From NCBI GenBank assembly GCA_964645645.1, contig CAZYBC010000001.1:6064-70063 (forward strand): DNA of 64,000 bases, in the 5' to 3' direction. Shown here one piece after another: positions 1 through 61,924 of this stretch; positions within the stretch are counted from its first letter, which is position 1; each line of letters begins with the position of its first letter. The stretch is from an uncultured Pseudomonadales bacterium. GTDB taxonomy: Bacteria; Patescibacteriota; Microgenomatia; UBA1400; PJMF01. Position numbers and translations under genes: made by a program. The notes beneath the pieces are model-generated. The model was not told the origin of the DNA, did no database searches, and saw only the letters and a list, made by a program, of their open reading frames with translations.

Positions 1-1907
1 ATTTCATCGTTGTCTGCTTCATTTAGAGATTGCTCAAACTTGGAAATACGCCCAGCCAGTGAAGCAAGACCATCTTCGTCAATCGTTCGTAATGCCGCTT
101 TTTCAAGTAAAGACTTGAATGATACAAAAGGCTGGCGTTCTAAGGTTCTTGAGTCAGTCTTAATACTCTCCGTCACTCCCACAGCATCAAAAATCACGAA
201 TCTATTTTTGTATTCAGCGTCAGGTGTTACTGCTTTTAAGTCATCTTCGCCAATTGTGCGAGTACCACGACCCTTCATCTGTTCAAAGTACACCCGAGAC
301 TTAACATCACGCATGAAGATAAGACATTCTAGAGGCTTGATATCAGTACCAGTCGAAATCATGTCCACTGTAACTGCAATGCGAGGGAAATATGAGTTGC
401 GGAAACTCTGAATCAACTCCTCTACATTTTCGCCCGTTCGATAAGTAATCTTTTTAGCAAAGTCATTGCCCTTGCCAAACACCTCACGCACAATATGCAC
501 GATCTCCTCTGCATGGTTGTCGTCTTTAGCAAAAATTAAAGTTTTAGGTACAGTCTCACGGTCAGGGTAAATATCAGGCAACCAGTTTTTGAAGACTTTA
601 ATAACTGTTCTTATCTGGTCTGGTGCTACCACACTTCTATCAAGCTGGCTGGCTTCGTAAGTTAGTGCCTCGTCCAACTTCTCCCATCTGACTTTGCGAG
701 TCTCACGATTGCGCACATCAACAAATGTACCCTCATCAATGGTATTGCCCTCTTCACCAATTTGGGTCTTAATGCGATACACATCGTAGCCAACATTGAT
801 TCCATCGGCGACCGCTCGTTCATGCGAGTACTCCATGATGAGATTGCTGTTAAAGAATCCAATGGTCTGTTTTGATGGTGTGGCAGTCAATCCGATTAAA
901 TGAGCATCGAAGTATTCAAGAACTTGTCGCCATAAATTGTAGATGGAGCGGTGACACTCATCAGTCACAATAAAATCAAATGCTTCGATGGGAAGTTGAG
1001 GATTATATTCGACAGGCACTTTGTCTTCGTATGTGAACTCAGGAGCGTTGTCAAATTGAGATGTTTCCTCAAGTGACTCATCAAACTCTGGGTTCCCAGA
1101 AAGAATTGAGTACATGCGTTGAATAGTTCCAATACAAACTTTACTTACTGGATCAATGCTTGGGCTTTTAAGGTGTTGAACATTGTATAGCTCGGTAAAC
1201 TTACGACCATCATCAGGGATAGTAAACTTTTGAAACTCTTTGAGTGTTTGTCTGCCTAGATTTCCTCGGTCAACTAAGAATAAAACTCGTTTGGCTTTAC
1301 CAAACTTGAGCAAGCGGTAAATGAACGAAACAGCGGTGAATGTTTTTCCACTTCCCGTAGCCATTTGAAGTAATGCCCGAGGATCATCTTTAGCAAGCGA
1401 CCTTTCTAAATTAGTGACTGCCTCAATTTGGCAACCACGAAGACCATACACATTGAGTTCTGGATAATTTTGTAAACGCTTGCGCAGTGTTTCTTCTTCC
1501 TGCAACCACTCCTGTATTGTCTCTGGTTTGTGAAAGGCAAACAATCGCCTCGATCTTGGTTGTGGGTCTCGTTCGTCTCTAAAAAAAGTTTCTGATCCAG
1601 TGCTTTCGTATGCAAAAGGGAGATGTTCATCAACTTTTGGTAAGTTGGCATCCGTGCTTGTTATGTACTTGCCTGATTGTTCTGCGACACCGCTAAGAGT
1701 CGTACCAGCAGGCTTTGCTTCAACCACACCCACTGCTTTGCGATCAACAAACAGCATGTAATCGGCGGGACCTTTTTGTGTTGGGAACTCGCGAACAGCA
1801 ACCCCAAGTTTCGCCCCTAGATTTAATCTAGAACGATCTTGTATATCCCATCCTGCTTGAATGAGCAATTTATCAATGTCTTGTCGAGCCTTTTCTTCTG
1901 GTGTCAT
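1..1907 (-). CDS. hsdR: Type I restriction enzyme R subunit (HsdR-like). It has an N-terminal PD-(D/E)xK nuclease domain followed by a DEAD/SF2 helicase. The 3' end runs off the window.
   Basis: Manual translation of the minus strand from ATG at 1907 gives an uninterrupted ORF of more than 630 aa. The N-terminus (MTPEEKARQDIDKLLIQAGW...DYMLFVD...VVEAKP) matches HsdR_N/PD-ExK. Helicase motifs are present: QMATGSGKTFT (Walker A), VTDECHRS (DEAD), LTATP and QMKGRGTR. The ORF track omits it because there is no in-window stop. Confidence 0.75.
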   Translation of the reverse strand, partial: MTPEEKARQDIDKLLIQAGWDIQDRSRLNLGAKLGVAVREFPTQKGPADYMLFVDRKAVGVVEAKPAGTTLSGVAEQSGKYITSTDANLPKVDEHLPFAYESTGSETFFRDERDPQPRSRRLFAFHKPETIQEWLQEEETLRKRLQNYPELNVYGLRGCQIEAVTNLERSLAKDDPRALLQMATGSGKTFTAVSFIYRLLKFGKAKRVLFLVDRGNLGRQTLKEFQKFTIPDDGRKFTELYNVQHLKSPSIDPVSKVCIGTIQRMYSILSGNPEFDESLEETSQFDNAPEFTYEDKVPVEYNPQLPIEAFDFIVTDECHRSIYNLWRQVLEYFDAHLIGLTATPSKQTIGFFNSNLIMEYSHERAVADGINVGYDVYRIKTQIGEEGNTIDEGTFVDVRNRETRKVRWEKLDEALTYEASQLDRSVVAPDQIRTVIKVFKNWLPDIYPDRETVPKTLIFAKDDNHAEEIVHIVREVFGKGNDFAKKITYRTGENVEELIQSFRNSYFPRIAVTVDMISTGTDIKPLECLIFMRDVKSRVYFEQMKGRGTRTIGEDDLKAVTPDAEYKNRFVIFDAVGVTESIKTDSRTLERQPFVSFKSLLEKAALRTIDEDGLASLAGRISKFEQSLNEADNDE

Positions 1908-2123
1908 ACATATTTTTCCCTATGGATTGCTTAGGATTTTGTAAGAACAATTATACCAGTGAACACTCGATTAGCGGAACGCAATGTGAAGAATAAAAAA
2001 GTTGATGACTAGCAGATTTAACCTTAAAACAGAGTGAGTATTGTGAGGGTCACCCAATTATAAATAGAAACCATTGAGCCAGTTTTAAGGTTAGTAGAAA
2101 GTTTCAGAGAGCATGAAAACCAG

Positions 2124-2984
2124 TTAATAGTGCTGGTATCCACCATCGTCCTCTTCCTCATCTGTAAGTCTGCCCGATAAGAAATCTGGCAACCATTTCT
2201 GCACTGTACCCATTGTCCAGAACTTCAACCACTCAAACTTCTTCTCGTCTTTGTTTTCCTCAATCCATTCCATGAAGTCTATAATCTGCTTTGGAGTACG
2301 CCCTGCCAAGAACATCGCCCTCGTATAGTTTAAAGCTGTTTTTAGCTCACTACCCCTACGATCCGTACCACTAATTCGTTTATAAGCCATCAATACTTGG
2401 TTGTACTGTATCCGTGGAAACCTTTTGATATTAGGGTTTTTCTTTTTAGGAATCTGCAAATGATTCCCTTTAGTATTAACACTATTATTATTTGTATTAC
2501 TTATATTAAGAGTATTAGTATATATATTATATGGAAGAGTTAGCGATTCTTGATCGGGGACTTTAGAGACTTTTACTAGATTTTTACCGAGTAAATCAAT
2601 GTTTTTTAAATCATCTTCATTGTGAAGATTTTTCTTCATTGTAAACAATTTTCTTACCTGTTCATCGGTGAGTAGCTTTGGGGGAACAGTTAGTTGAAGT
2701 GTAACTTCTCTGCCACTGTGCTTCTTTTTAACCAATCCCAAATCTTCCAGCTGTTTGATTATCTTTCCAAAGTGTTGCTTTGTGATACCAAGGTGGTGTG
2801 CCAATTTAGAACTTACAAGATTTTCTAAGCCAAAGGTGTAATCAAGGAGAATCAACCTTGTATAAGCCCTTAGAAGGGGTGCTTCATCTTGCAGGAGTAG
2901 TAGTATAGCAACAGGTAAACTTATATTCTCAATTGATACACCTTGAGTTGTGTCTGCATGTAGTAATTGTGATTGTTCGGTCAT
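2124..2984 (-). CDS. Winged-HTH DNA-binding protein. It may be a replication or regulatory protein of the integrated element.
   Basis: 286-aa ORF. The N-terminal segment LAHHLGITKQHFGKIIKQLEDLGLVKK resembles a MarR/wHTH fold. The C-terminal domain is unknown. The gene lies inside the G+C-richer segment and overlaps the next ORF (ATGA junction). Confidence 0.5.
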   Translation of the reverse strand: MTEQSQLLHADTTQGVSIENISLPVAILLLLQDEAPLLRAYTRLILLDYTFGLENLVSSKLAHHLGITKQHFGKIIKQLEDLGLVKKKHSGREVTLQLTVPPKLLTDEQVRKLFTMKKNLHNEDDLKNIDLLGKNLVKVSKVPDQESLTLPYNIYTNTLNISNTNNNSVNTKGNHLQIPKKKNPNIKRFPRIQYNQVLMAYKRISGTDRRGSELKTALNYTRAMFLAGRTPKQIIDFMEWIEENKDEKKFEWLKFWTMGTVQKWLPDFLSGRLTDEEEDDGGYQHY

Positions 2985-3436
2985 GAGGTTGCTCCTTCTG
3001 TGTTGGTATCTTGTGATAATTCACTAATTTCATTCTTAATTCTGTGAAGCTCCGCATCTACATCAAATGGTTTAACCCCTTGAATGTCGCGACCAAACTC
3101 TTCTTTACAGTGGATTGAATTAGTGGCTACCCACATTACAAATTGAAGATCTTTCCAGTCAATTTCAAAACCTGCTTGTTGGCGTGCATATATTCTGTAC
3201 AACTGCTTTGCGATCACGGTTGAAGTAATCAAAGAGATGTAAGTCTGAAATGCCCTTATTTGGTCTCTCAAATAGCGACTCTTTTTCATCATTCTGTATA
3301 GCGTTGCTCTTGAAACACCAGATTGCAAACAGGCAATTCTAATAGAAAGCCCCGACCTTAAATATGGCTCTAATTTTGAGACCATTAGGTCTGCTTGTTC
3401 TTTCGTAAATGGTTGATTTCCCTTTTTTCGGTTCAT
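2981..3436 (-). CDS. HTH-domain protein (resolvase/terminase-small-subunit-like HTH).
   Basis: 151-aa ORF. LSIRIACLQSGVSRATLYRMMKK is a classical helix-turn-helix. Confidence 0.5.
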   Translation of the reverse strand: MNRKKGNQPFTKEQADLMVSKLEPYLRSGLSIRIACLQSGVSRATLYRMMKKSRYLRDQIRAFQTYISLITSTVIAKQLYRIYARQQAGFEIDWKDLQFVMWVATNSIHCKEEFGRDIQGVKPFDVDAELHRIKNEISELSQDTNTEGATS

Positions 3437-3497
3437 GTCGATATACTAGCAATTGATGGCTATTGACAGTCTCTCAAATGAGTGTTAAATTGTCAAT

Positions 3498-3812
3498 ATG
3501 AACGAAAATGTAGAAGACAAAATCCGATCACTATCGCTTCCTCAGCTTGAGATCCTAATGGTCATGGCGAAATCAAATGAGCCAGTTTCTACCAGCAGAG
3601 AGATCATGCAGACCACAGGAACAAGCTCTTATACTTTTGGTGCAATCATCTCTCCACTCAGAAGACATAAAGTAGACGGTCAAAGCCTTATAGTCCAAGC
3701 TGGTAAAGATGGCGCAAATGGGGTCAGATGGCAAATAAATGAGAAGCTTGTAAGCAAGCAAGACTTACTAATTTTATTAAATAGCATGGGGGTGCAAATC
3801 GAAGAAAACTAA
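3498..3812 (+). CDS. Small hypothetical protein, possibly a winged HTH.
   Basis: 104-aa ORF transcribed divergently from the HTH gene. No recognisable catalytic motifs. Confidence 0.4.
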   Translation: MNENVEDKIRSLSLPQLEILMVMAKSNEPVSTSREIMQTTGTSSYTFGAIISPLRRHKVDGQSLIVQAGKDGANGVRWQINEKLVSKQDLLILLNSMGVQIEEN

Positions 3813-4078
3813 ACTCAACTCAACACAAGTAAACAAAATTAAGTAATGACGACTTTGCTCGGTCACAAGTAGACCCAGCTTTATATCAAGAAATGACAGT
3901 AGACGATTTAGGTATAAAGTTGGGTTTTTTTGATGCAAAAAAGACATGAGTAATAAAAAAGATAATAAAAAACTAGATGAGGGTCTGCACCAATGGTTCG
4001 AACTGGTATTGGCACACATCCAGCATAAACAAGTAGTACAAAACACAACAAAAAAAGTTGTAAGTGAAAGGAAAGAAT

Positions 4079-4261
4079 ATGCCAAAAGTGTTAATCAAAG
4101 AAATTAGAGGCTACATCGGAGCAAAAGAATACTTTTGCCCCAATTGTGGTGAAGAATTAGGATTGAACGCACACATTGACCATCTGTTAATGGACAGTGA
4201 CCTTGAAAAGATTCAGGCGTACTTTCTCTACTGCAATCGGTGCGGAGAAAAGATCGAGTGA
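4079..4261 (+). CDS. Small zinc-ribbon protein (two CxxC pairs).
   Basis: CPNCGEE...CNRCGEK. The ATG at 4079 is preceded by GAAAGGAAAG (Shine-Dalgarno). The ORF track starts earlier, at GTG 4064. Confidence 0.45.
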   Translation: MPKVLIKEIRGYIGAKEYFCPNCGEELGLNAHIDHLLMDSDLEKIQAYFLYCNRCGEKIE

Positions 4262-4422
4262 AACCTTTTGAAGTTGAGCCAAATCAAACCTGAAAATAAA
4301 ATATAGGTATATAAAAAAAGAGGCTGTGTCCGTCTAAAGAAACAACCTCTTTTACATTACAAACAGCGTTTCCGCCGTTAGTGAATATAATATCACACAC
4401 GACGGAGCCTAGAAAGGAAGCT

Positions 4423-4926
4423 ATGACAACGGGCTTTGTATCCGTCGGAAGACGCCATTTAGAAATTGACCCCACAGATGTGGCAGTTAGAGATTACTTC
4501 GGAGTATCCCAACTATTCCGCTACTCCCTCGCTTTTTCCGAAAAAGCATACGACCAAACATTGATACTTGTTCCAGGGCATGATTGGGTACTTCATCCAG
4601 ATATAGCGGTACCTGACGACTTGAACCCCAACCTTAGAGGACAAGACTTGAACCTACAAGATCAAACTCAGTGGTTTTCCAGCATTGCAGATCAGATTCG
4701 TGAGTATTGCCCTGCTGAATCTGAATTATTTTTCCATTCTGGGAAATGGTTTGACCAGCTATTCACCTATCTCAGTCAACCAGATCCGATTTCAGGAAGT
4801 CCAACCTGTTATACCTTCCACACGCCAATGCGAGATCAACATTTAAGAATAGGAAAACAGTTGGCGTTCTATAAGTCGATGGTCGGGCAATTACCCTCAG
4901 TAAAAAATGAAAGGAGGGCTAAATGA
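4423..4926 (+). CDS. Hypothetical protein translationally coupled to the serine recombinase. It could be an accessory or directionality factor.
   Basis: ATG at 4423 is preceded by GAAAGGAAG. Its stop overlaps the recombinase start (ATGA at 4923-4926). Confidence 0.5.
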   Translation: MTTGFVSVGRRHLEIDPTDVAVRDYFGVSQLFRYSLAFSEKAYDQTLILVPGHDWVLHPDIAVPDDLNPNLRGQDLNLQDQTQWFSSIADQIREYCPAESELFFHSGKWFDQLFTYLSQPDPISGSPTCYTFHTPMRDQHLRIGKQLAFYKSMVGQLPSVKNERRAK

Positions 4927-6491
4927 ACAACAACGGAGCTAATACCGCCTATGCATACTGTCGAGTAAGTACAGACCGCCAAGCCAAAGAAGGATTTTCA
5001 CTTGAACAACAAAAGAAGTCCTGTGAACAACTCGCCAAAAGTCATTCAATTAAAATACTCGATTTTTATATCGATCGAGGAGAAACCGCCACTGCCTCGA
5101 ACCGCAAACAGTTTATGCAGATGTTAGAAGACTGTGAGCGCAAAGAAGTGAAGTACATCTTGGTATATCATACCGACCGATTTGCAAGAAATAGCCTAGA
5201 CCACCTCGTAATTAAGGACAGGTTAGCAAAACTTAACATTGCACTTCTGTCAGTCACCCAACCAATGATTGACTCATCTCCAGAGGGTAAGTTGCTCGAC
5301 ACTATGATGGCTTCCATCAACCAATTTTACAGTGACGATCTATCTAGAAAAACAATGCGTGGCATGTATGGTCGCTGGGAAAAGGGCTGGTGGGTATCTG
5401 GTGCACCACACGGCTATATGAATATTAATAAAGAAAATAGAATCACTAAAACATCTTTTACAGTCGAGAAGCAAAAGTACCTAGACTCGCTAGGTCGACC
5501 AATTATGCCAATTGAACAAGACCCTTTCGTAGCACCTTACATCAAGCAAGCATTTGAATTGTACGCCACAAATAACTACTCATATTTTAATCTGGGTCAA
5601 TACTTATTTGAAAAAGGACTAAAGACAGCAAATGGTAAACCCTTAGCCCACAGCACCATTCACCAGATCATAACGAACAGTTTTTATTTTGGAAAAATGC
5701 GCTGGAACAATGAAGAGAGGATGGGAAAACATGAACCACTTATTGATGAGGCACTTTTCAAACACTGTCAATTGATCGCAGCTCAAAAAAGGCACTTCAT
5801 CATTCGTCAACGCAAACATGACTTCTTACTGCGTGGTGTAGTTTTCTGCAATAGGTGTGGTCTGCGGTATACGGCCGAGTGGCACAAAATAAACTCTACT
5901 AGCTCAGACAAAATAGCCTATTACCACTGTGCTAAACGCCAGCCATGTAAATCCCCTTATGTAGAGATGGAAGAACTTGAATCTCTAGTTGAGAAACAAC
6001 TGCGTAAAGTTAAGTTCACCGATGAGTTCATCCAATTACTCAGTGACAAGGTAAAAGAGTACTTAGAGAATCAAGGATCCCGTAATAGTGAGGTGGAACA
6101 AATTCTAGTTAAACGCCGAGCAGAACTCAAAAAACAGAAAAGTGAGTTACTGTCTTACTTGGTTAACAAAGTGATTGATAAGGATGACTTTGCCGAGAAA
6201 AAAGCCGAGATTGAGAATGAAATTGAAGGTATCAATGAAGAGGTTGGTAAGCTAGATCGAACCAGCAATTTCGATTTTGACCTACTAGAGGAGGTACTAA
6301 AGTTAACTATGGACATTCCAGCCACCTACAATGACGCACCTCCAGAGCTCAAGAGACAGTATTTGAAGTTCTTCTATAATAAGGTGAAAGTGGACAACAA
6401 AAAAATTATAGCAGTTGAATTTTCTGATTTATTACTTGAGCTAATTTCTTTTAAGCGTCTTATAATAATCAGTAGAAGGCTCCCCGGGTAG
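4923..6491 (+). CDS. Large serine recombinase (resolvase/invertase catalytic domain, recombinase domain and zinc ribbon).
   Basis: YAYCRVSTDRQ catalytic serine motif. Length 522 aa. A C-terminal Cys cluster (CNRCG...YHCAKRQPC) is present. A strong SD (AAAGGAGGG) precedes the start. The stop TAG at 6489-6491 lies inside the 3' end of tRNA-Asn. Confidence 0.85.
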   Translation: MNNNGANTAYAYCRVSTDRQAKEGFSLEQQKKSCEQLAKSHSIKILDFYIDRGETATASNRKQFMQMLEDCERKEVKYILVYHTDRFARNSLDHLVIKDRLAKLNIALLSVTQPMIDSSPEGKLLDTMMASINQFYSDDLSRKTMRGMYGRWEKGWWVSGAPHGYMNINKENRITKTSFTVEKQKYLDSLGRPIMPIEQDPFVAPYIKQAFELYATNNYSYFNLGQYLFEKGLKTANGKPLAHSTIHQIITNSFYFGKMRWNNEERMGKHEPLIDEALFKHCQLIAAQKRHFIIRQRKHDFLLRGVVFCNRCGLRYTAEWHKINSTSSDKIAYYHCAKRQPCKSPYVEMEELESLVEKQLRKVKFTDEFIQLLSDKVKEYLENQGSRNSEVEQILVKRRAELKKQKSELLSYLVNKVIDKDDFAEKKAEIENEIEGINEEVGKLDRTSNFDFDLLEEVLKLTMDIPATYNDAPPELKRQYLKFFYNKVKVDNKKIIAVEFSDLLLELISFKRLIIISRRLPG

Positions 6492-6551
6492 GACTCGAAC
6501 CTACAACCTTGAAGTTAACAGCTTCCTGCTCTGCCATTGAGCTACCGAGGA
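6480..6551 (-). tRNA. tRNA-Asn (anticodon GTT).
   Basis: Hand-folded cloverleaf. Acceptor TCCTCGG/CCGGGGA, D-arm GCTC-AATGGCA-GAGC, anticodon loop CTGTTAA (U33, GUU, A37), T-arm GTAGG-TTCGAGT-CCTAC, discriminator G. The acceptor and anticodon loop match the E. coli tRNA-Asn pattern. Confidence 0.85.
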
Positions 6552-6603
6552 TTATTAAAGAACAGACCAAATTATACCAGTCAATTTTTCAAAATACCAG
6601 TCA

Positions 6604-7299
6604 TTAATCCCAACTTTTTTGGCTATCGCCAGTGATCGGAATTTTTTCCCCTAAAAATTTTGGTTTGGCATGGAAAAGGATATCTTTAAAGGCTTTAATT
6701 TTAGCGAAAAATTCGCGGAAGTTGTTATATTGTTGGCCATAATAAATGCGCTTGTCTGCGCTTATCCCCACAGCTTTAATGCCTAAACTATTAGCCAAGT
6801 ATAAGCTTCTATTTAAATGGAAATTTTGGCTAACAATAATTAAAGATTCCACATCAAAGATATAATCTGCTCGATAAACGCTATCGTAAGTGTCAAAGCC
6901 GGCGTGATCCATAAAAATATCTTCGGCTTTAACGCCTTTTTCTAAAAGGTAATTTTTAATGGTATTAACTTCATCATAATTTTTGCGGCCATGATCGCCA
7001 CTGATTAAAATCTTTTTTACTTTAGCGTTTTGATATAACTCAATAGCCGTGTCAGCACGATCTTGCATAATTGGACTTAACTTACCATTGTCATAAACTA
7101 AAGAACCTAAGAGCAGCGCAGTTTGCGCAGCCGGCACGGTTTTAGAATCAGCATAAATCTGGGCTTGCGTAGATTGATCAAGATAAAAATTAATTAAAAA
7201 TGGAATTGTGCCCAGCAAAAACATAAGAACTGTTAAACTTAAAAACAGCTTCTTTTTAGCTTGCAAAATTTGTTTAAAAATCGCTTTTACCTTTTTCAT
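6604..7299 (-). CDS. SanA/YdcF (DUF218) family membrane protein.
   Basis: N-terminal TM segment. KKILISGDHGRKNYDEVNTIKNYLLEKGV...DHAGFDT is typical of DUF218. Confidence 0.6.
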   Translation of the reverse strand: MKKVKAIFKQILQAKKKLFLSLTVLMFLLGTIPFLINFYLDQSTQAQIYADSKTVPAAQTALLLGSLVYDNGKLSPIMQDRADTAIELYQNAKVKKILISGDHGRKNYDEVNTIKNYLLEKGVKAEDIFMDHAGFDTYDSVYRADYIFDVESLIIVSQNFHLNRSLYLANSLGIKAVGISADKRIYYGQQYNNFREFFAKIKAFKDILFHAKPKFLGEKIPITGDSQKSWD

Positions 7300-8391
7300 T
7301 TACTCTAAAAAGTCTTGGAGTTTTTTACGGCGGCTAGGGTGTTTGAGTTTGCGTAAGGCTTTAGCTTCAATCTGACGAATCCGTTCACGGGTAACGCCAA
7401 ATTTACGGCCAACTTCTTCTAGGGTCATACTTTTATTGCCCATCAAGCCAAAACGCATTCTCAGCACAGCAGCTTCGCGGTCTGAAAGGGCTGATAAAAC
7501 CTCTTCCACATTTTCCCGCAACATTTGTTTGCTGGTGGAATCGTAAGGACTAATTTGCTTATCATCAGCAATAAAGTCACCTAAAATGCTATCATCTTCG
7601 CCATCACCAACTGGAGTTTCCAAAGAAGTGGTATTTTGAGAAATCTTAAGAATTTCGCGAACTTTATCAGGTTCAAGCTCCATTTTTTCGCCAATTTCTT
7701 CTGGAGTAGGTTCTCGGCCTAAATCTTGCATTAATCTTCTGGCTGTTCTCATCAATTTATTGATGGTTTCAACCATATGAACTGGAATACGGATTGTCCG
7801 GGCTTGATCAGCAATAGAACGAGTAATAGCTTGACGAATCCACCAGGTGGCGTAAGTAGAAAATTTAAAACCTTTGGTCCAATCATATTTTTCTACGGCT
7901 CTAATTAAACCTTTATTACCTTCTTGAATTAAATCAAGGAAAGTTAAACCACGGCCAATGTATTTTTTAGCAATAGACACCACTAATCTTAAGTTAGCAT
8001 CAATTAATTTTTTCTTGGCTTTTTCACTACCAGCCTCTACTTCTTGAGCTAACCGAATTTCTTCTTCACGACTTAACAGTGGAATCCGGCCAATCTCCTT
8101 GAGATACATGCGGACAGGATCAGAAACCCCAACACTACCTAGTGAAGATAAAACATCTAATTCTTGTTGAAGATTGTCGCTTTCTTCTTCTTTAGTACTG
8201 GAAACTGATTCAAAGATATCAACTCCAGCAGTCATGATATCATTGTAAAAATCGTCTAATTCTTCTAAATAAAGTTCTGGCTCAACAAAAGTGTCCAACA
8301 CATCTTCTTGAGTTACAAAACCCTGACTTTTAGCTTTTTTGAGCAAACTTTTAATATCTTCTGCTAAAGCCTTAGGAAGTTTTTTTGCCAT
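7300..8391 (-). CDS. rpoD: RNA polymerase sigma-70 factor RpoD.
   Basis: Region 2 is [49 protein letters not shown]. Region 4 is [28 protein letters not shown]. Confidence 0.92.
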
Positions 8392-8580
8392 AATACATAT
8401 TCTCTAATTGAAGTTAATTGATAAATTACGTTTTATTTCCAGCGATTAGCTGCGAATGCCTTTAGGCTTAATAGATTGAACGTAATTTTTTAAAAAACAA
8501 AAACAATGCCGATTTTCATCGGATTCTATAATTATAATGGAAAATAGAAGATTTGTTAAGCTTAATTTACAATTGCTAAT

Positions 8581-9360
8581 TTAAGCATTAACCAATGGCC
8601 AATCTAAAGTAGGGGTTAAAAAAGTAGCTTTTCTTTTACCTACTACCACCATATATTCAAACATGGCTGCTTTGGCTCCATCAGCGGTTTTAATTGTCCA
8701 GCCATCTTCTGCCTGATAAATTTGATCACTGCCAGCCACAATTTGACATTCCACACACAAGACCATGCCTTCTTGTAAAGCTGGACCGGTATGAGGTTTA
8801 CCATAAGAAGGAATAGCTGGATCATCATGTAAGGTGCGACCAATACCATGACCAACAAATTCTTTTACGGTTTCAAAATTATCTTTGCGAGCAGTCTTAG
8901 ACATTAAACTAGATAAATCACCTATATAATTACCAACTACTGCCTTAAAAGCCGCCTTTTGAACAGCTTCCCGGCTGGTTTTAAGTAAACGCAAATCTGC
9001 ATTACTTACTGCTCCCACCCCCACTGTAAAACAATGATCTGTATATAGGCCCTGATAAATAATCCCAAAGTCCACCTTTACTAAATCTCCATTTTTAAAA
9101 GGAGTTTCATTAGGTATACCATGCAAAACCGTATCATTGACACTAATACAAGTGGCATACTGATAACGATTATTTTTAGGACCAACTCCCATAAAGCTAG
9201 GTTTAACTTGATATTCAGCACATAAATTTTGCGCCAACAGTTCAATTTGCATGGGAGTAACACCTACTTCAATGGACTCACGAAGTTCTCCTAAAATTTT
9301 GGCTGATAGTTTGCCAGCTTCTTTGTATTGGACTAGAGTTTTTTCATCTTTAATAATCAT
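8581..9360 (-). CDS. map: Methionine aminopeptidase type I.
   Basis: DLVKVDFGIIYQGLYTDHCFTVGVG and the metal-ligand His/Glu pattern. 259 aa. Confidence 0.9.
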   Translation of the reverse strand: MIIKDEKTLVQYKEAGKLSAKILGELRESIEVGVTPMQIELLAQNLCAEYQVKPSFMGVGPKNNRYQYATCISVNDTVLHGIPNETPFKNGDLVKVDFGIIYQGLYTDHCFTVGVGAVSNADLRLLKTSREAVQKAAFKAVVGNYIGDLSSLMSKTARKDNFETVKEFVGHGIGRTLHDDPAIPSYGKPHTGPALQEGMVLCVECQIVAGSDQIYQAEDGWTIKTADGAKAAMFEYMVVVGKRKATFLTPTLDWPLVNA

Positions 9361-9411
9361 TGTAGTTCCTCAGCTGACCATCTAAATGACTTTTGCTGAT
9401 CTGCCTATATT

Positions 9412-10635
9412 TTAAACCTTAAACTGCCCATTTTGATAAATAATTTTTTCACTGCCATCGGCCAAAATAGCGGTGACTGTACGATCAGTGGTTTGAACAA
9501 TGTCAGTGTGTTCGGCTGAATCATTAAAACCTAATTTGGCCCAGGTTCTTTTGCTTACTTGGCTTGCATCGCCACGATAACAGTCATGATATGACATCCC
9601 AATCGCTAAGTGCATATTGCCAAATTTACCACCCATATTTTCATCAAATAAGGTTTCAGCCATTGGATGAGTAATCCGGCTCATCCGGCCATCGGTCAAG
9701 CTAAACTCACCTAATTTATTAGCATTGGGCGTTTTTAACATCGCTTGTAAAAATTGATCGCCTTTTTTAGCCTGAGCCTTAACGACCACACCTTCTTCAA
9801 AAACTAAATCAATATCTTCAATCAAATTGCCATAACGATACAGTGGTTCATTAAAATGGATATGACCTTCTGTACCACGCCAATCTGGTGACGTAAAAAT
9901 TTCAAAACTAGGAATATTCCGTCCACCGCCGCCATTCCAAACACGATCAGCCCCAATTTTTAACCAGATATCAGTGCCTTCACCAACCACATGAAGTTTG
10001 TCGATTTTTAAATCATTTAAAGTTTGCCGAATTTTATGTTGTTCTTGACTAATTGTTTGCCATTGAGCAATTGGATCAGCCACATCTAAATAACAGGCCA
10101 AAATAATTTGTTGCCAATATTCCTCTAAGCTCAAACCCACTTCCTTGGCCTTAGCCAAAGTGGCCCACATGGCAATCGTCCAGGTAAATTTACCCTCATT
10201 TTCTTTTTTGGTCAGCCAATCACGATAGGCTTTTTTACTATTACGCGCTTGTAAAATACGATTGGGATCAACGTCTTTTAATTCAAAAGGATCAACCTCA
10301 GCAATAATAACAATTTGATGATCAATTAAATTGGCTTTAGCTTGAAGATATTTTTTAGGAAAAAAAGTTAATTGATCATTATCAGCAAAATCATAAAAAT
10401 CTTTATCAAACTGAGTTGGTAAAAGTTGCAAAATAGGATGAGCGCCGGCTCTTAAAACCTCCTTGTGTAATTCTTTAGCTAAAGGCTTAGCTACATCTGG
10501 GACCACAATATTAACCACTTCTTTTGGCTTTACCCCAGCTCCAGAATTAAGCGCATAATTAACCAACACTTTAGCATATTGATTTAAAATTTCAGCTGAA
10601 GGTTGGTAATTTGTAGAATTTTGCGTAATAGACAT
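9412..10635 (-). CDS. Aminopeptidase, M29 family (AmpS/PepS-like).
   Basis: 407 aa. The N-terminal region and overall length fit thermophilic-metalloprotease M29 family members. Confidence 0.7.
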   Translation of the reverse strand: MSITQNSTNYQPSAEILNQYAKVLVNYALNSGAGVKPKEVVNIVVPDVAKPLAKELHKEVLRAGAHPILQLLPTQFDKDFYDFADNDQLTFFPKKYLQAKANLIDHQIVIIAEVDPFELKDVDPNRILQARNSKKAYRDWLTKKENEGKFTWTIAMWATLAKAKEVGLSLEEYWQQIILACYLDVADPIAQWQTISQEQHKIRQTLNDLKIDKLHVVGEGTDIWLKIGADRVWNGGGGRNIPSFEIFTSPDWRGTEGHIHFNEPLYRYGNLIEDIDLVFEEGVVVKAQAKKGDQFLQAMLKTPNANKLGEFSLTDGRMSRITHPMAETLFDENMGGKFGNMHLAIGMSYHDCYRGDASQVSKRTWAKLGFNDSAEHTDIVQTTDRTVTAILADGSEKIIYQNGQFKV

Positions 10636-10697
10636 AAATATTTTCTAAAACCGACTTGGGCTAGCCAGCCGATTGATTTATAAATATAATCAACTTT

Positions 10698-11306
10698 ATG
10701 CAAGAACCAATTATTTATCAGCCTACCTCAGAATTACAACTTAGCCAACATATTTTTCGCACTCCCATTGACGGGCTTTATTATATAACGATTGACAAAA
10801 AAAATGACGAACGGGGTTTTTTTAGCCAAATTATTGAATTACAAGAATTAGAAGCAATTATTGGTCAACCTTTTACAGTAAAACAATTTAACTATTCTAA
10901 AAGCCAAACTAATGTGGTGCGTGGTTTGCACGCTGAAGGTTGGAATAAATTAGTGACAGTCACTCACGGAACCGCTTTTAGCGCTTTGGCTGATATTAGA
11001 CCTCAGTCTGCTACTTTTAAACAAGTTGTTTATTTTAAATTAGGTTTTGACCTTAATCCTGATCTTGGCTTTGCTCTTTATATTAGCCAAGGCATCGCCA
11101 ATTCAATTTGTGCCTTAGAAGGGCCTGTAGAATATCTTTATTTAGTGGATAAACTGTATAGCGAACGCAGCCAAAAAGATAATGCGGCCCTATCAATTTT
11201 TGATCCAGAATTAAATATTCAATGGCCCATTGCCAAAGAACAAATGATCATCTCACAACGAGATACTCAACCTAAAAAATTAAGCGAAATGTTAGCGGAA
11301 AAATAA
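10698..11306 (+). CDS. dTDP-4-dehydrorhamnose 3,5-epimerase-like cupin (RmlC family).
   Basis: DERGFF...VRGLHAEGW...KLV.VTHG...DIRP.S.TF are RmlC signature segments. The second catalytic His region is diverged (ANSICALEG). Confidence 0.6.
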   Translation: MQEPIIYQPTSELQLSQHIFRTPIDGLYYITIDKKNDERGFFSQIIELQELEAIIGQPFTVKQFNYSKSQTNVVRGLHAEGWNKLVTVTHGTAFSALADIRPQSATFKQVVYFKLGFDLNPDLGFALYISQGIANSICALEGPVEYLYLVDKLYSERSQKDNAALSIFDPELNIQWPIAKEQMIISQRDTQPKKLSEMLAEK

Positions 11307-11318
11307 CTTGATTGTTTT

Positions 11319-11885
11319 TTAGCTAAATTCTTCGTTGCTCTCCATGTCTTTTTCAATCAAATCTCTAAGATAAACAGAGCGAGGAATTTTTTTATTTTTA
11401 GCAATCCAATCTAAATAGTTTTGATGTCTAGGTGAAATGAAAAAGTTAAAACGAGTATCTTGTTGTTCAGCGGCATAATCAATAGCAGTGGAAAGCACTT
11501 CAATTAAATTAGCTTCTGAATATTCAATCAACTGTAATTTATCATTGACGATACCTTCTACAAAACTAGGACGAAAATCTTTTAAATAAAGAGCAATGAC
11601 TGGTTTATTAAGCTGTAAAGATCTTTCCATGATATAACCCATAGATAAACTATTCATGGAAACTTCAAGAACAATTAAATCAGCTTTTTTAATATATTCG
11701 ATAGTTTTTTTATAATGATCAACTCGACTTTCATGAGAACCATTATAAAACTTTTCTCGGTATTCAAGACTAGTTATTCCTCTTAAATGACTATGACCTA
11801 GTCTTTCAATCTCTTTATAAATGGCGTCGTAATATTTACCGAACTCTTTAATGCCTCGTCCGGATTGATCAAAATAAATTTTCAT
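11319..11885 (-). CDS. Nucleoside 2-deoxyribosyltransferase-like domain fused to a C-terminal ribbon-helix-helix (RHH) DNA-binding domain.
   Basis: ADLIVLEVS...GYIMERSLQLNKPVIAL matches the NDT/Rcl-like fold, with a Glu in the GY.ME motif. The C-terminal RFNFFISPRHQNYLDWIAKNKKIPRSVYLRDLIEKDM has a beta-alpha-alpha RHH pattern. The start was chosen at MKIYF (ATG 11885). The ORF track extends to 11918. Confidence 0.5.
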   Translation of the reverse strand: MKIYFDQSGRGIKEFGKYYDAIYKEIERLGHSHLRGITSLEYREKFYNGSHESRVDHYKKTIEYIKKADLIVLEVSMNSLSMGYIMERSLQLNKPVIALYLKDFRPSFVEGIVNDKLQLIEYSEANLIEVLSTAIDYAAEQQDTRFNFFISPRHQNYLDWIAKNKKIPRSVYLRDLIEKDMESNEEFS

Positions 11886-11939
11886 AATTAAAATTATATT
11901 ATATACCAACCGAGGCAAAGACTAAACCTTAAATTTATC

Positions 11940-11960
11940 AATTCTACAATTTGTAGAATT
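11940..11960. promoter_or_regulatory. Perfect 21-bp palindrome (candidate operator) in a divergent promoter region.
   Basis: AATTCTACAA-T-TTGTAGAATT. Located between the NDT-RHH fusion gene (minus strand) and the ribA-like gene (plus strand). Confidence 0.5.
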
Positions 11961-12046
11961 AATAATAATTTATTACTTTTGAAGCCTAGACTAAAAAATG
12001 TTATAATTTTTTACGAAAAAAATAACATTATTAAGATTATTTTATT

Positions 12047-43075: not shown

Positions 43076-44152
43076 TTATCTTTCTAAATACCTTTTTAAT
43101 ATTTTTTCTCTTTCCTGCTGAAAAAGTTGTGCATATTTTTTAATAATTGGATTGCTTGCAAAAGTTACTGAGTCTAATAACTTATGACCAACCTCAGCTA
43201 TTAAAGCTATCATCGTCATTTGATTATCAGTCAACTTATCTGAACCAATGTTACTCCAAGCTGGATCTGCTGTAAAAAATTTTTCAACTGGCCCTAGATT
43301 TTTATCTTGATCTTTTTGTGGCAACCATTCTTGAATGGCTAAACGAGTAAACTTTAATTTCAAAGCTATTAACTCAGCCTTTAGATCAGCAGATCCCTCT
43401 TTTGGCATTCTTTCTAACCAATGTCCCAATTCATGAATTAATACTCCTATTACTTTTGGGTAATCAAATACTTTTCTATTTTGACCATTAGCGTCAAGCT
43501 GTATAAATAGTGAACCAAAAGCACTAACTAAAATTTCAATAATTCCACCATTATTATAATCAATCATGGCTCCAGCATTATCAAGGTTTCCACTACCTGA
43601 AAAACTATCCACTAATTTAATCTTGGCTGGTAAAAAATTGGATAGAATTCCTAAATCAATTAGAATTTCATCAGTAGAAAAATCAAGTTCTAATTCTTTA
43701 ACAGTTTCTGATTCACATATAATTTGGCAATTTTTATTTACTAGCGAAGTAGATTCACTTTCTTTATCGAGCTCTACTGAAGAAGAACTATCTATACCAT
43801 TGATCAGTAAATCATAGGCAGTCCGAGTTTGTAAAACAAAACTCAAATTACTGTTACTTATTTGAGTTTGTAAAGCATCCATATATTGAGAAATATTGCA
43901 CAACATTTTAGCTAATTGTAAATGTTCATAAAGCACTAAAGCACAGTTCCTATAATTAGCCGGTAAGGCTTGCTGCAATTGTTCTAAAGTCAAATCTGCC
44001 ATTTCTTCTGGAGTATAAGCTGATTTTTTAGTTTCAATTCCACAACCAGCTAAAACAGCCGTAGCAGCTGAACCTAAAAACAAAGTCCAGATTAATTTTA
44101 ATAATTGCCTTCTAGTTATTTTTTTAGGCTCAACAGTATTAGCTTCTTTCAT
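43076..44152 (-). CDS. Lipoprotein with an HExxH zinc-metallopeptidase motif.
   Basis: LAGCG lipobox and VLIHELGHWLERMP. Confidence 0.5.
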   Translation of the reverse strand: MKEANTVEPKKITRRQLLKLIWTLFLGSAATAVLAGCGIETKKSAYTPEEMADLTLEQLQQALPANYRNCALVLYEHLQLAKMLCNISQYMDALQTQISNSNLSFVLQTRTAYDLLINGIDSSSSVELDKESESTSLVNKNCQIICESETVKELELDFSTDEILIDLGILSNFLPAKIKLVDSFSGSGNLDNAGAMIDYNNGGIIEILVSAFGSLFIQLDANGQNRKVFDYPKVIGVLIHELGHWLERMPKEGSADLKAELIALKLKFTRLAIQEWLPQKDQDKNLGPVEKFFTADPAWSNIGSDKLTDNQMTMIALIAEVGHKLLDSVTFASNPIIKKYAQLFQQEREKILKRYLER

Positions 44153-44261
44153 CTTATCTATTAAATAACTTTTTAAAAAGGTCTGTCAAAAGGGAAATAC
44201 ATTTAATAATATTCTGTTATATAATAGATATGTTTCTGCCCAAATCCCAAAAGGGAAACAA

Positions 44262-45329
44262 ATGACCAGAACTTTTAGTATCATTATTATTTTTCATAAT
44301 GAACAAGCTGGCTTAAAAAATTGCCTCCTATCTGTTTTAAAACAAAATTACCCTCAAAATAAATATCAAATAATTTTAGTAAATGATTCTTCTAAAGATA
44401 ATTCTGTTAAAACTATTCAAACTCTGCTTCAAGAACCAAATATTTCATTAATTAACTCCGATAAACCTTTAGGTATTTCTACTGCTAGAAATCTTGCTAT
44501 TAAAAAGGCCAAAGGAGAAATTTTATTTTTTATAGATGCTCATATCTATTTACAAAGAAATACTCTTTCAATAATTAATCAAAAATTAAATCAATATCCT
44601 CAAATTTCTGGAGTCTGTGGACAATATTCTGCTAAAGAAAAAAATGACTATAATGTTATTAGAGATTTACGAAGAATAATCAATTTTAAAAAAGCCGAGC
44701 AAGATTTTATTATTGATTTAGAAAATTTTACTACTTTTTCTATAGCCGTAGGCGCATATAAAAAAGAAGTTTTTAAAAATAATTTTTTCCCAGATCATTT
44801 TGAAAATAGTGCTGGAGAAGATGTTTATGTGCAATTAAAAGCTCATCATAATGGACACAAATTTCTTTATACCTCAGATATATCTGCATATCATGACGCA
44901 AAATTAAGTTTAAAAAAATTATTGACTAAATTAACTCAAGAGATAAAAGGCACTATTAATATAATTATTCATTCTATTGAAAATAATGATCACTTTAACT
45001 TACCTTTCTTGGAACATTTTTTAGATTATCCAATTTTAATTTATGTATTTTTAATTTCCTTTTTATTAACTAAAAATATTTATTTAGGAATAATTTTTTT
45101 ATTAGCCTTTATCATTAGATACAGTAAAACTGTACAAGCAATAAAAATTAAACCACAGTTTTTTATTCAATATTTAATTTTTTTAATTATTAAAGATTTT
45201 TTACAATTTATTGCTTTAACAACTCTATTATTCAATAAAAATGCAAAAATCTTTAACTATCTAATTACTATTAAAAAAAATCAATTAAAAAATTATTTTA
45301 AAATCTTACCATGTGTAAGTAGAAGATAA
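44262..45329 (+). CDS. Glycosyltransferase family 2 with a C-terminal membrane domain.
   Basis: FSIIIIFHNEQAGL...IILVNDSSKDNS...FIDAH. Confidence 0.75.
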   Translation: MTRTFSIIIIFHNEQAGLKNCLLSVLKQNYPQNKYQIILVNDSSKDNSVKTIQTLLQEPNISLINSDKPLGISTARNLAIKKAKGEILFFIDAHIYLQRNTLSIINQKLNQYPQISGVCGQYSAKEKNDYNVIRDLRRIINFKKAEQDFIIDLENFTTFSIAVGAYKKEVFKNNFFPDHFENSAGEDVYVQLKAHHNGHKFLYTSDISAYHDAKLSLKKLLTKLTQEIKGTINIIIHSIENNDHFNLPFLEHFLDYPILIYVFLISFLLTKNIYLGIIFLLAFIIRYSKTVQAIKIKPQFFIQYLIFLIIKDFLQFIALTTLLFNKNAKIFNYLITIKKNQLKNYFKILPCVSRR

Positions 45330-45339
45330 ATAAAAAAAT

Positions 45340-47497: not shown

Positions 47498-47499
47498 AT

Positions 47500-47685
47500 A
47501 TGAAAACTATAGAAGATGGCAAAAATGCTTATATTCATCAATCTGATGGATTACTAGAATGGGTTAAACAACAAGCTAAACAAAGAAGGCAAGCTAGACA
47601 AGAACGAAAAAAAAGACAAGCCGAAAGAGATGAAGCGAACCAAACTAAAGAAAGAGCAAAAGCTCAACATCATAAAATAGATTAA
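47500..47685 (+). CDS. Small highly basic protein.
   Basis: 61 aa with a KRQ-rich C-terminus, followed by a terminator. Confidence 0.4.
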   Translation: MKTIEDGKNAYIHQSDGLLEWVKQQAKQRRQARQERKKRQAERDEANQTKERAKAQHHKID

Positions 47686-47732
47686 GAATTTTTCAAAGTA
47701 TCTATACTTAGATGCTGATCTCTCTAGCTATC

Positions 47733-47762
47733 AAAAGCGCCAATACATTTGGCGCTTTTTTG
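47733..47762 (+). terminator. Intrinsic terminator.
   Basis: AGCGCC-AATACATTT-GGCGCT followed by T6. Confidence 0.7.
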
Positions 47763-47900
47763 TGCTATAATATTTAGTCTCGGCCACATTCCACGTATTG
47801 AGAGAAAAGGTATCAAATTTCAAGTTTCCTCTTAATCTTATTTATCAAAGCTTTGCTTTGAAATTATTGTTATTGGTTAACCCCAAACAAGGAGGTCAAA

Positions 47901-59630: not shown

Positions 59631-59635
59631 AAACT

Positions 59636-61921: not shown

Positions 61922-61924
61922 ACT

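What the first reader, a model, noticed from the sequence alone, without database searches (positions are those of the whole stretch)
1..6551. G+C-richer integrated element with a large serine recombinase abutting tRNA-Asn and carrying a type I restriction R subunit
- From the window start to the tRNA-Asn gene the DNA is visibly G+C-richer than the remaining ~58 kb.
- This segment encodes an HsdR-like nuclease-helicase (running off the window), two HTH proteins, a zinc-ribbon protein and a 522-aa large serine recombinase.
- The recombinase stop codon lies 12 bp inside the 3' end of an intact tRNA-Asn(GTT). This is the geometry of an element integrated at a tRNA 3' end.
- tRNA-targeting integrases are usually tyrosine recombinases, so a serine recombinase at a tRNA attachment site is less common.
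- The element appears to mobilise a restriction-modification module, whose hsdM and hsdS are presumably left of the window.
Basis: partly seen in the sequence, partly recalled or inferred. Interest (0 to 1): 0.6.

Follow-up and report, generated by a model that had tools for sequence, protein, structure and literature searches.

The report
Serine-recombinase defence island at tRNA-Asn
The left 6.5 kb of the window is the right-hand end of a mobile DNA island that a large serine recombinase inserted into the end of a tRNA-Asn gene; it carries a restriction enzyme gene and belongs to a large, apparently undescribed family of such islands in candidate-phyla-radiation bacteria.

Summary
Positions 1-6477 have 40.1% G+C against 32.3% for the rest, with a clear third-codon-position step. 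The 522-aa large serine recombinase (LSR, 4923-6491) stops 12 nt inside an intact tRNA-Asn(GTT) (6480-6551, minus strand). The truncated left gene is a type I HsdR-like nuclease-helicase.

- LSRs 76-93% identical sit in other contigs with the same core genes but different defence cargo and different host flanks.
- Among 60 more distant LSR loci whose sequence continues past the gene, 39 end in the antisense 3' end of a tRNA. It is Asn in the nearest clade and His, Glu and others further out.
- The family's C-terminal "WLPR" motif translates the antisense CCA and acceptor strand.
- A distant member shows the full signature: a 21-22-nt tRNA 3' repeat about 6 kb upstream.

Not shown: the window's own far att site, an empty site, and hsdM/hsdS. 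All lie off the window, and its source is not in the searchable collections. The crossover point is only bracketed, and the T-loop is the best guess.

It is an ordinary kind of element with an uncommon integrase choice, and a new family.

The parts
3..1907 (-). Cargo: N-terminal 635 aa of a type I HsdR-like nuclease-helicase. The gene continues beyond the left edge of the window.
   Evidence: Pfam HSDR_N, ResIII and Helicase_C. NCBIfam PRK11448 at 365 bits and EcoAI family at 213 bits, both below their full-length cut-offs. PADLOC REase_I. The nearest annotated homologues (55% identity, about 915 aa) are followed by hsdS and a class I SAM methyltransferase.
2020..2092 (.). Conserved non-coding module at the border between core genes and variable cargo. 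A 12-bp inverted repeat (TAACCTTAAAAC ... GTTTTAAGGTTA) brackets about 49 bp that contain TATAAT.
   Evidence: 86% identical to L001 and 76% to L002 although the flanking cargo differs. Found only in window, L001 and L002. The fold z-score is only -1.8 and there are no compensatory changes. Function not established.
2124..2984 (-). 286-aa protein with an N-terminal winged helix. Weak resemblance to phage replication-initiator O and DnaD-like loaders.
   Evidence: Pfam MarR and HTH_Crp_2 below cut-off. PHROG replication initiation O-like at E 1e-4. No homologue in the related loci.
2981..3436 (-). 151-aa HTH protein, a conserved core gene of the element family.
   Evidence: Homologues in L001, L002, L009 and L010. 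Weak matches to HTH_7 and to a small-terminase PHROG.
3498..3812 (+). 104-aa ORF of unknown function.
   Evidence: No family match and no homologue in related loci.
4064..4261 (+). 65-aa zinc-ribbon protein.
   Evidence: Zn_Ribbon_1 at 25.7 bits.
4381..4926 (+). DUF6884 protein, a conserved partner gene immediately upstream of the LSR.
   Evidence: Pfam DUF6884 at 33.4 bits. Same position in L001, L002, L004, L009 and L041.
4923..6491 (+). Large serine recombinase (integrase), 522 aa. Its last four codons and the stop are written in the antisense of the tRNA-Asn 3' end.
   Evidence: Three Pfam domains. PHROG integrase at E 4e-95. The catalytic domain resembles TP901-1 integrase and residues 229-496 resemble the A118 integrase C-terminal domains. 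The R14-V15-S16 catalytic motif is invariant in the family alignment.
6478..6500 (.). Junction (attR) region. This tRNA-like 3' segment is most likely supplied by the element. The crossover is somewhere in or just right of it.
   Evidence: Similarity to the L001 element, which has no tRNA, runs to 6500. 19 of the first 22 nt are identical and then 9 of the next 22. In the distant L063, the direct repeat ends in the T-loop. The window tRNA has a U4.G69 wobble.
6480..6551 (-). Intact tRNA-Asn(GTT), the integration target.
   Evidence: ARAGORN. Rfam tRNA at 63.9 bits. In L167, similarity to the window's host side stops exactly at the tRNA 3' end.

Best explanation
Window 1-about 6500 is the right-hand part of an integrative genomic island, probably 10-13 kb long, in a low-G+C bacterium of the Patescibacteria (candidate phyla radiation) type.

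Proposed mechanism.
- The island's own large serine recombinase inserted it into the 3' part of the tRNA-Asn(GTT) gene.
- The island carries a copy of the last roughly 20 nt of the tRNA: the acceptor 3' strand, the T-stem 3' strand and part of the T-loop.
- This copy overlaps the end of the recombinase gene, so insertion rebuilds a working tRNA.
- The displaced original 3' end should lie at the far, off-window junction.

Contents. Next to the recombinase lies a small conserved core: DUF6884, a 151-aa HTH protein and possible replication-initiator-like proteins. Beyond a conserved inverted-repeat module sits a variable defence cargo. Here the cargo is a type I restriction R subunit, probably followed by S and M genes.

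Shown: the gene content, the composition step, the tRNA overlap, recurrence of the same core with other cargo and other flanks, and recurrence of the overlap across the family.

Inferred: the crossover position, the far junction, present-day mobility, and a complete R-M system.
For: - Composition and GC3 step.
- LSR with all three domains and the catalytic serine.
- Stop codon 12 nt inside an intact tRNA-Asn.
- L001 (LSR 93% identical), L002 (76%) and L004 (77%) share DUF6884 and the LSR. L001 and L002 also share the 151-aa gene and the inverted-repeat module.
- Their cargo differs. L001 has a type III-like Res plus two methyltransferases. L002 has a 1531-aa helicase-nuclease plus SNase. Their host flanks also differ.
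- L004 is again at a tRNA-Asn, here split by a group I intron.
- Of 80 metagenome loci with related LSRs, 60 extend past the gene. Of these, 35 have an antisense tRNA overlapping or abutting the ORF end and 4 have a group I intron at or just beyond the LSR end, read as an intron-split tRNA-Asn.
- tRNA identity follows the LSR clade.
- The C-terminal WLPR(xDSN) motif is antisense CCA, acceptor and T-arm.
- Distant L063 has 21-22-nt direct repeats of the tRNA-Glu 3' end, each preceded by a terminator-like hairpin, about 6 kb upstream of the LSR-tRNA junction.
- 21 of 34 LSR-adjacent tRNAs have a G.U wobble in the acceptor stem, against 2 of 33 other tRNAs in the same loci. T stems are unaffected.
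- In L167, a relative that keeps SanA-tRNA-Asn, similarity ends exactly at the tRNA 3' end.
- L173 has three LSR genes in tandem ending at one tRNA-Asn.
Against: - No far att repeat could be examined for this locus.
- None was found within 8-10 kb in any of the roughly 9 Asn-clade loci.
- No empty site was recovered. The 98%-identical SanA contig L166 stops inside the tRNA, and L174 has lost the synteny.
- The window copy lacks several core genes of its nearest relatives: the 115-aa resolvase-like ORF, HTH_31, HTH_36 and the roughly 245-aa gene. It may be a reduced or immobile derivative.
- L001, L070 and L010 show the LSR with a tRNA-like tail but no tRNA, so targeting is not absolute.
- The crossover is not pinned. 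Junctions in L173 keep only 8 nt of tRNA-like sequence.
- The wobble statistic is confounded by tRNA type and by relatedness of the loci.
Confidence: 0.8

Rival explanations
1. A fixed remnant. The island was once inserted by the LSR but is now an immobile, partly decayed resident, and the recombinase is retained only by chance or for another role.
For: The window copy lacks the 115-aa resolvase-like ORF and three or four other core genes that L001, L002 and L004 keep. No att partner and no empty site were seen.
Against: The LSR ORF is full length with its catalytic motif and is 93% identical to the L001 LSR. All seven ORFs are intact. GC3 has not ameliorated toward the host.
Confidence: 0.15
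2. A prophage or phage satellite end rather than a plain genomic island. The weak small-terminase-like and replication-initiator-like proteins would point to a phage-dependent life cycle.
For: PHROG matches are weak: terminase small subunit at E 3e-5 for the 151-aa protein and replication initiation O/DnaD-like at E 1e-4 for the 286-aa protein. The L001 HTH_36 protein matches replication initiators at E 2e-12. Distant LSR relatives sit at the ends of IMG/VR proviruses next to tRNA-Pro.
Against: No capsid, portal, tail or large-terminase gene lies in the 6.5 kb here or in the 10 kb upstream of the LSR in L001 and L002, where the space is taken by defence genes. The matches are below any curated threshold.
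Confidence: 0.1
3. Chance juxtaposition. The recombinase gene merely happens to end next to a tRNA and the G+C difference reflects gene content.
For: Only that the far junction is unseen.
Against: The same overlap recurs in 39 of 60 informative related loci with matching tRNA-clade structure. The conserved C-terminal motif is antisense tRNA. The tetranucleotide z-score is 10.9.
Confidence: 0.01

Closest known systems
tRNA-integrating genomic islands of the Islander type (normally tyrosine integrases)
   Same: The integrase gene lies at the island edge next to an intact tRNA whose 3' part is rebuilt from island DNA. Composition is foreign and the island carries cargo genes. The distant member L063 shows the expected tRNA-fragment repeat.
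   Different: The integrase is a large serine recombinase. In 2014 the Islander authors stated that only tyrosine integrases were known to target tRNA genes (PMC4383910). The recombinase ORF itself runs into the tRNA.
Serine recombinases already reported at tRNA genes: the Ralstonia phage phiRSM1 recombinase at tRNA-Ser, eight mycobacterial AICE recombinases at tRNA-Leu (PMC3218068), and the LSR-bearing minority among the 937 Prochlorococcus integrative elements (tycheposons and cryptic elements; 10.1101/2020.12.28.424599)
   Same: A serine-family integrase with a tRNA gene as attachment site. Tycheposons also combine a tRNA site, replication-type genes and variable cargo.
   Different: The hosts differ: candidate-phyla-radiation bacteria here, against proteobacteria, actinobacteria and cyanobacteria. 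No sequence relationship was tested. No conjugation or capsid genes are present here. tRNA targeting here characterises a whole large LSR clade.
Characterised phage serine integrases (A118, TP901-1, Bxb1, phiC31)
   Same: Domain architecture, with the catalytic domain like TP901-1 and the recombinase and zinc-ribbon region like A118.
   Different: At most about 30% identity to any phage LSR in GenBank phage records. From general knowledge, not tested here, those enzymes mostly target protein-coding genes and share only a 2-bp core between attP and attB.
Mobile defence islands with exchangeable cargo (for example pipolins, PMC11551731)
   Same: A conserved mobility core plus a variable slot filled with restriction or other nuclease-helicase systems in different copies.
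   Different: No PolB and a different integrase family. The cargo border is marked by a conserved inverted-repeat module of unknown role.

Membership tests
Large serine recombinase (serine integrase) | N-terminal resolvase catalytic domain with the nucleophilic serine | tested here: met
   PF00239 at 108 bits. R14-V15-S16 and Q20 are invariant in a 26-sequence alignment. Matches the TP901-1 integrase catalytic domain at E 2e-15.
Large serine recombinase (serine integrase) | Recombinase domain followed by a zinc-ribbon domain (with coiled coil) | tested here: met
   PF07508 at 64.8 bits and PF13408 at 39.6 bits. Residues 229-496 align to the A118 integrase C-terminal region, 4KIS. The coiled coil was not analysed separately.
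Large serine recombinase (serine integrase) | Short attP and attB sites exchanged at a central dinucleotide, giving attL and attR | tested here: inconclusive
   Only the LSR-side junction is in the window. Comparison brackets the crossover to about 8-25 nt from the tRNA 3' end.
tRNA-integrated genomic island | Integrase gene next to an intact tRNA gene at one island end | tested here: met
tRNA-integrated genomic island | Direct repeat of the tRNA 3' fragment at the other island end | not testable with these tools
   The left end is off the window and the source contig was not found. It was not found within 10 kb in Asn-clade relatives. It is present in the distant members L063 and L054.
tRNA-integrated genomic island | Absence from the same site in related genomes (empty site) | tested here: inconclusive
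   L166 (98% SanA identity) ends inside the tRNA. L167 keeps SanA-tRNA-Asn but has other foreign-looking genes beyond it. L174 has no synteny.
tRNA-integrated genomic island | Composition differing from the host | tested here: met
   G+C, GC3 and tetranucleotide usage.
Type I restriction-modification system | HsdR with a PD-(D/E)xK nuclease region and an SF2 helicase motor | tested here: inconclusive
   HSDR_N (26.2 bits), ResIII and Helicase_C are present. The best NCBIfam models are type I R families, but at 365 bits against a 729 cut-off and 213 against 550, because only 635 aa are in the window.
Type I restriction-modification system | Adjacent hsdM and hsdS genes | not testable with these tools
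   Downstream of hsdR is off the window. The homologues H2 and H3 (55% identity) have S and M downstream.
Tycheposon or phage-satellite type element | Replication module and/or packaging genes together with a site-specific integrase at a tRNA | tested here: inconclusive
   Only weak PHROG matches (E 1e-4 to 3e-5) to replication-initiator and small-terminase families.

The most novel reading that the evidence does not exclude
A whole clade of large serine recombinases, centred on candidate-phyla-radiation bacteria, may have specialised on tRNA genes by writing a tRNA 3'-end mimic into the last codons of the recombinase gene itself.
- Integration and excision would then change what lies downstream of, or even within, the recombinase ORF.
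- They would also place the gene head-on against tRNA transcription. This could act as a built-in switch between the integrated and free states.
- The conserved inverted-repeat module would be a dedicated site for swapping defence cargo.
Probability: 0.15. Interest if true: 0.7.

Novelty: new variant of a known kind. Interest (0 to 1): 0.5.

Why it matters
Mobile elements of candidate-phyla-radiation bacteria are poorly known. The textbook view is that tRNA genes are targets of tyrosine integrases.

This locus is one member of a large family in which a serine integrase does that job. The family could serve three purposes:
- a marker for finding islands and defence systems in these tiny genomes;
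- a source of compact integrases with predictable, universally present target sites (tRNA genes);
- a case for studying how a recombinase that needs no homology still evolves to rebuild its target gene.

Tried and rejected
- Exact-protein look-ups of four window proteins found nothing, one of them first with a wrong coordinate. The source contig is not in the collection.
- The genome-collection scan with the LSR returned only the L004 contig again.
- A concatenated query, meant to recover the L001 Res protein and the L002 helicase so that those contigs could be walked leftwards, returned only 50-55% homologues.
- Searches for a second copy of the tRNA 3' end failed in the window and in all Asn-clade loci, at 14-24 nt with 1-5 mismatches.
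- Three Logan contigs end at the same place inside the tRNA (L002, L003, L173), and L166 ends in the anticodon loop. I first took these ends as crossover markers. I rejected that because the last 30 nt there are pure conserved tRNA, which breaks a k=31 assembly graph anyway.
- No contig showed a terminal overlap that would indicate a circular free form.
- GenBank phage records hold no LSR more than about 30% identical, so there is no characterised close relative.
- The inverted-repeat module is not supported as a structured RNA: z = -1.8 and no compensatory pairs.
- Rfam found only the tRNA in 1-12000.
Full report
**Observation**

The window is a low-G+C genome of about 32%.
- Positions 1-6477 have 40.1% G+C against 32.3% for 6552-64000.
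- None of 204 same-sized windows in the rest exceeds 35.9%.
- The tetranucleotide distance to the rest is 10.9 standard deviations above that of host windows.
- GC3 is 0.34-0.48 in the seven left ORFs against 0.13-0.32 in host ORFs.
- G+C alone shows a shoulder of 36.5% over the first host genes (6552-11000). The boundary is therefore sharp only in GC3 and k-mers.

- A minus-strand ORF from 1907 runs off the left edge (635 aa). It carries HSDR_N, ResIII and Helicase_C. Its best NCBIfam models are two type I R-subunit families, both below their cut-offs because the protein is truncated.
- A 286-aa protein has a weak winged-helix match.
- A 151-aa protein has a weak HTH match.
- A 104-aa ORF has no match.
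- A 65-aa protein is a zinc ribbon.
- A DUF6884 protein follows.
- The last gene is a 522-aa large serine recombinase (LSR) with Resolvase, Recombinase and Zn_ribbon_recom domains.

The catalytic domain of the LSR resembles TP901-1 integrase. Residues 229-496 resemble the A118 integrase C-terminal region.

tRNA-Asn(GTT) lies at 6480-6551 on the minus strand (Rfam, 63.9 bits; ARAGORN gives 6478-6551). The LSR stop codon TAG is at 6489-6491, 12 nt inside the tRNA.

**Close relatives**

The window's own proteins are not in the exact-match collection. Homologues of the LSR are. Named hits come from Woesebacteria, Daviesbacteria and other Microgenomates, so the host is of the candidate-phyla-radiation type. 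This is an inference from hit names.

Three close loci were fetched.
- L001 has an LSR 93% identical to the window's.
- L002 has one 76% identical.
- L004 has one 77% identical.

All three have DUF6884 directly upstream of the LSR. L001 and L002 also share the 151-aa gene and a roughly 105-bp non-coding block.

To the left of that block the content differs.
- L001 has a type III-like Res gene plus two N6/N4 methyltransferases.
- L002 has a 1531-aa AAA_11/AAA_12 helicase-nuclease plus a staphylococcal-nuclease homologue.
- The window has the HsdR-like gene.

To the right of the LSR the host genes also differ.
- L001 has inositol phosphatase and UDG.
- L004 has IMPDH and then sigma-70.
- The window has SanA and sigma-70.

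The same mobility core with different defence cargo and different neighbours is what a mobile island looks like.

**tRNA junction in the close relatives**

The last 30 nt of all these LSR genes are tRNA-like.
- L004 is again at a tRNA-Asn. ARAGORN miscalled it because a group I intron (Rfam, 94.8 bits) splits it inside the anticodon.
- L002 and L003 end inside the tRNA sequence.
- L001 has no tRNA. Its sequence matches the window's for 19 of the first 22 tRNA-like nucleotides and then for 9 of the next 22. It runs into the 3' end of a host gene 47 nt further on.

The simplest reading is that about 22 nt of tRNA 3' end travel with the element, and that L001 sits in a secondary site.

**The wider family**

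A scan of metagenome contigs with an alignment of 26 LSRs returned 80 loci. In 60 of them the sequence continues past the LSR.
- 35 have a tRNA on the opposite strand whose 3' end is overlapped by the LSR ORF. One of these is abutted 8 nt away rather than overlapped. The typical overlap is 10-70 nt.
- 4 more have a group I intron at or just beyond the LSR end, which I read as an intron-split tRNA-Asn by analogy with L004.

The tRNA tracks LSR similarity. It is Asn for most of the loci at 34-43% identity. It is His, Phe and Lys near 32%. It is Glu, Gln, Met, Val and Ala below 30%. Provirus contigs in IMG/VR with LSRs of 24-26% identity are likewise followed by an antisense tRNA, mostly Pro.

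The conserved C-terminal motif of the family, WLPR followed in many members by xDSN, is the translation of antisense CCA, acceptor strand and T-arm. The overlap in the window is therefore a family trait and not an accident.

**Far junction and crossover**

In the distant member L063 (tRNA-Glu) the first 21-22 nt of the tRNA 3' end recur at two positions.
- One copy lies about 6 kb upstream of the LSR-tRNA junction and a second lies 180 nt further.
- Each is preceded by a terminator-like hairpin.
- The identity stops in the T-loop.

L054 shows a shorter repeat of the same kind. This is the classical island signature.

In the Asn clade, none of about nine loci with 8-10 kb of upstream sequence has such a repeat. 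This fits elements longer than 10 kb. L001 and L002 already exceed 11.5 kb.

The nearest annotated homologues of the window's HsdR are 55% identical and about 915 aa. They are followed by hsdS and a class I SAM methyltransferase. If the window has the same arrangement, its element reaches 10-13 kb.

Other clues on the crossover disagree in detail.
- L013, L070 and the second LSR of L173 keep the tRNA register to about position 19.
- L010 keeps it to about position 29.
- The first LSR of L173 keeps only 8 nt.

I therefore give the crossover as 8-25 nt from the tRNA end, with the T-loop most likely.

An independent hint that the acceptor 3' strand is element-borne comes from wobble pairs.
- 21 of 34 distinct LSR-adjacent tRNAs have a G.U pair in the acceptor stem.
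- Only 2 of 33 other tRNAs in the same loci do.
- T stems show no excess.
- The window's tRNA has U4.G69.
- The comparison is confounded by tRNA type and by relatedness of the loci.

**Empty site**

The last protein search went to the host SanA-like gene next to the tRNA.
- A 98%-identical copy sits on a 1.3-kb contig that ends in the anticodon loop. It is uninformative.
- L167 (65% identical) keeps SanA-tRNA-Asn. Similarity to the window stops exactly at the tRNA 3' end. What follows there is a different set of unannotated genes and an unrelated LSR (23% identity) whose ORF also ends in TGGCTCCC-like sequence.
- L173 holds three LSR genes in one orientation within 21 kb. The last ends in the same tRNA-Asn sequence as the window.

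Both L167 and L173 suggest that this tRNA is a repeatedly used site. Neither is an empty site. L174 has lost the synteny.

**Core genes and life style**

The 286-aa protein and the HTH_36 protein of L001 resemble phage and plasmid replication initiators weakly. The 151-aa protein resembles small terminase subunits weakly. No structural phage gene is present here or in the 10 kb upstream of the LSR in L001 and L002. I read the element as a small integrative island that may replicate after excision. A satellite life style is possible but unsupported.

The block at 2020-2092 has a perfect 12-bp inverted repeat around a TATAAT. It lies just upstream of the first cargo gene in all three close loci. 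It could be an operator-promoter or a cargo-exchange site. It is not supported as an RNA structure.

**Comparison with what is known**

- In 2014 the Islander authors wrote that only tyrosine integrases were known to target tRNA genes (PMC4383910).
- Ghinet and colleagues called serine-recombinase integration into tRNA genes rare. They cited phiRSM1 and a group of mycobacterial elements at tRNA-Leu (PMC3218068).
- In the Prochlorococcus tycheposon study, 27 of 937 integrative elements (tycheposons and cryptic elements) carry an LSR (10.1101/2020.12.28.424599).
- I found no paper on such elements in Patescibacteria. The library is incomplete, so this is absence of evidence only.

**Verdict**

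The kind of element is known. Three things appear to be new:
- the use of a serine integrase that carries a tRNA-end mimic in its own last codons;
- the size of the family that does so;
- its defence cargo in candidate-phyla-radiation genomes.

Three things remain open: the far junction, an empty site, and the S and M genes.

Noticed in passing
L004 3928-4199; L008 2195-2428; L009 11522-11720; L035 4897-5110; L020 2816-3029: Group I introns (Rfam RF00028, 54-110 bits) lie at or just beyond the LSR end. In L004 the intron splits the tRNA-Asn gene, with an exon junction at CTGT|TAAC inside the anticodon. In L008, L009 and L035 the exons were not traced. The L020 intron lies about 330 nt beyond the LSR. 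ARAGORN misses or miscalls these genes.
   Followed up: partly
window 58038-63953: A second type I R-M cluster sits at the right edge: HsdM (58038-59630), an AAA_13 ATPase inserted between M and S (59636-61921), HsdS (61925-63154) and a KilA-N protein (63147-63953). The region has only 23-29% G+C. No hsdR is seen before the window ends.
   Followed up: partly
window 2020-2092 (also L001 4329-4401, L002 4912-4984): A conserved inverted-repeat module (AACCTTAAAAC ... GTTTTAAGGTT with TATAAT inside) lies exactly at the border between the conserved core and the variable defence cargo. Its role is unknown.
   Followed up: partly
L173 584-2230, 10001-11677, 19926-21383: Three large serine recombinase genes lie in the same orientation within 21 kb of one Logan contig. 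The last ends in the same tRNA-Asn antisense sequence as the window (...LWLPG*). The first two end in TGGCTCCC followed by non-tRNA sequence. This looks like a tandem array of elements at one tRNA.
   Followed up: partly
L001 9657-10004; L002 9657-10004; L004 1981-2328; L173 9556-10011: A small ORF (115-151 aa) with a degenerate resolvase catalytic domain sits between DUF6884 and the LSR in relatives. It lacks the RVS motif. It is absent from the window, where DUF6884 overlaps the LSR start directly. It may be an accessory or directionality factor.
   Followed up: partly
LSR-adjacent tRNAs in L006-L084 and window 6480-6551: Acceptor stems of tRNAs next to these LSRs carry G.U wobbles far more often than other tRNAs in the same loci (21 of 34 against 2 of 33). 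T stems do not. This is consistent with a host 5' strand paired to an element-borne 3' strand.
   Followed up: partly
L001 11557-11620; L070 11527-11600; L010 11488-11520: These LSR genes have a tRNA-like tail but no tRNA beyond it. They run straight into host genes: inositol phosphatase in L001 and a PMT_2 glycosyltransferase in L070. They are probably secondary integration sites.
   Followed up: partly
window 44000-48000: A stretch of 25-27% G+C encodes a family 2 glycosyltransferase, a radical SAM protein, a DIT1/PvcA-like protein and an MFS transporter. It may be another acquired or surface-related cluster.
   Followed up: no
L033 3909-4031: An Rfam LOOT RNA match (77 bits) turned up in one of the related metagenome loci. 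It is unrelated to the finding.
   Followed up: no
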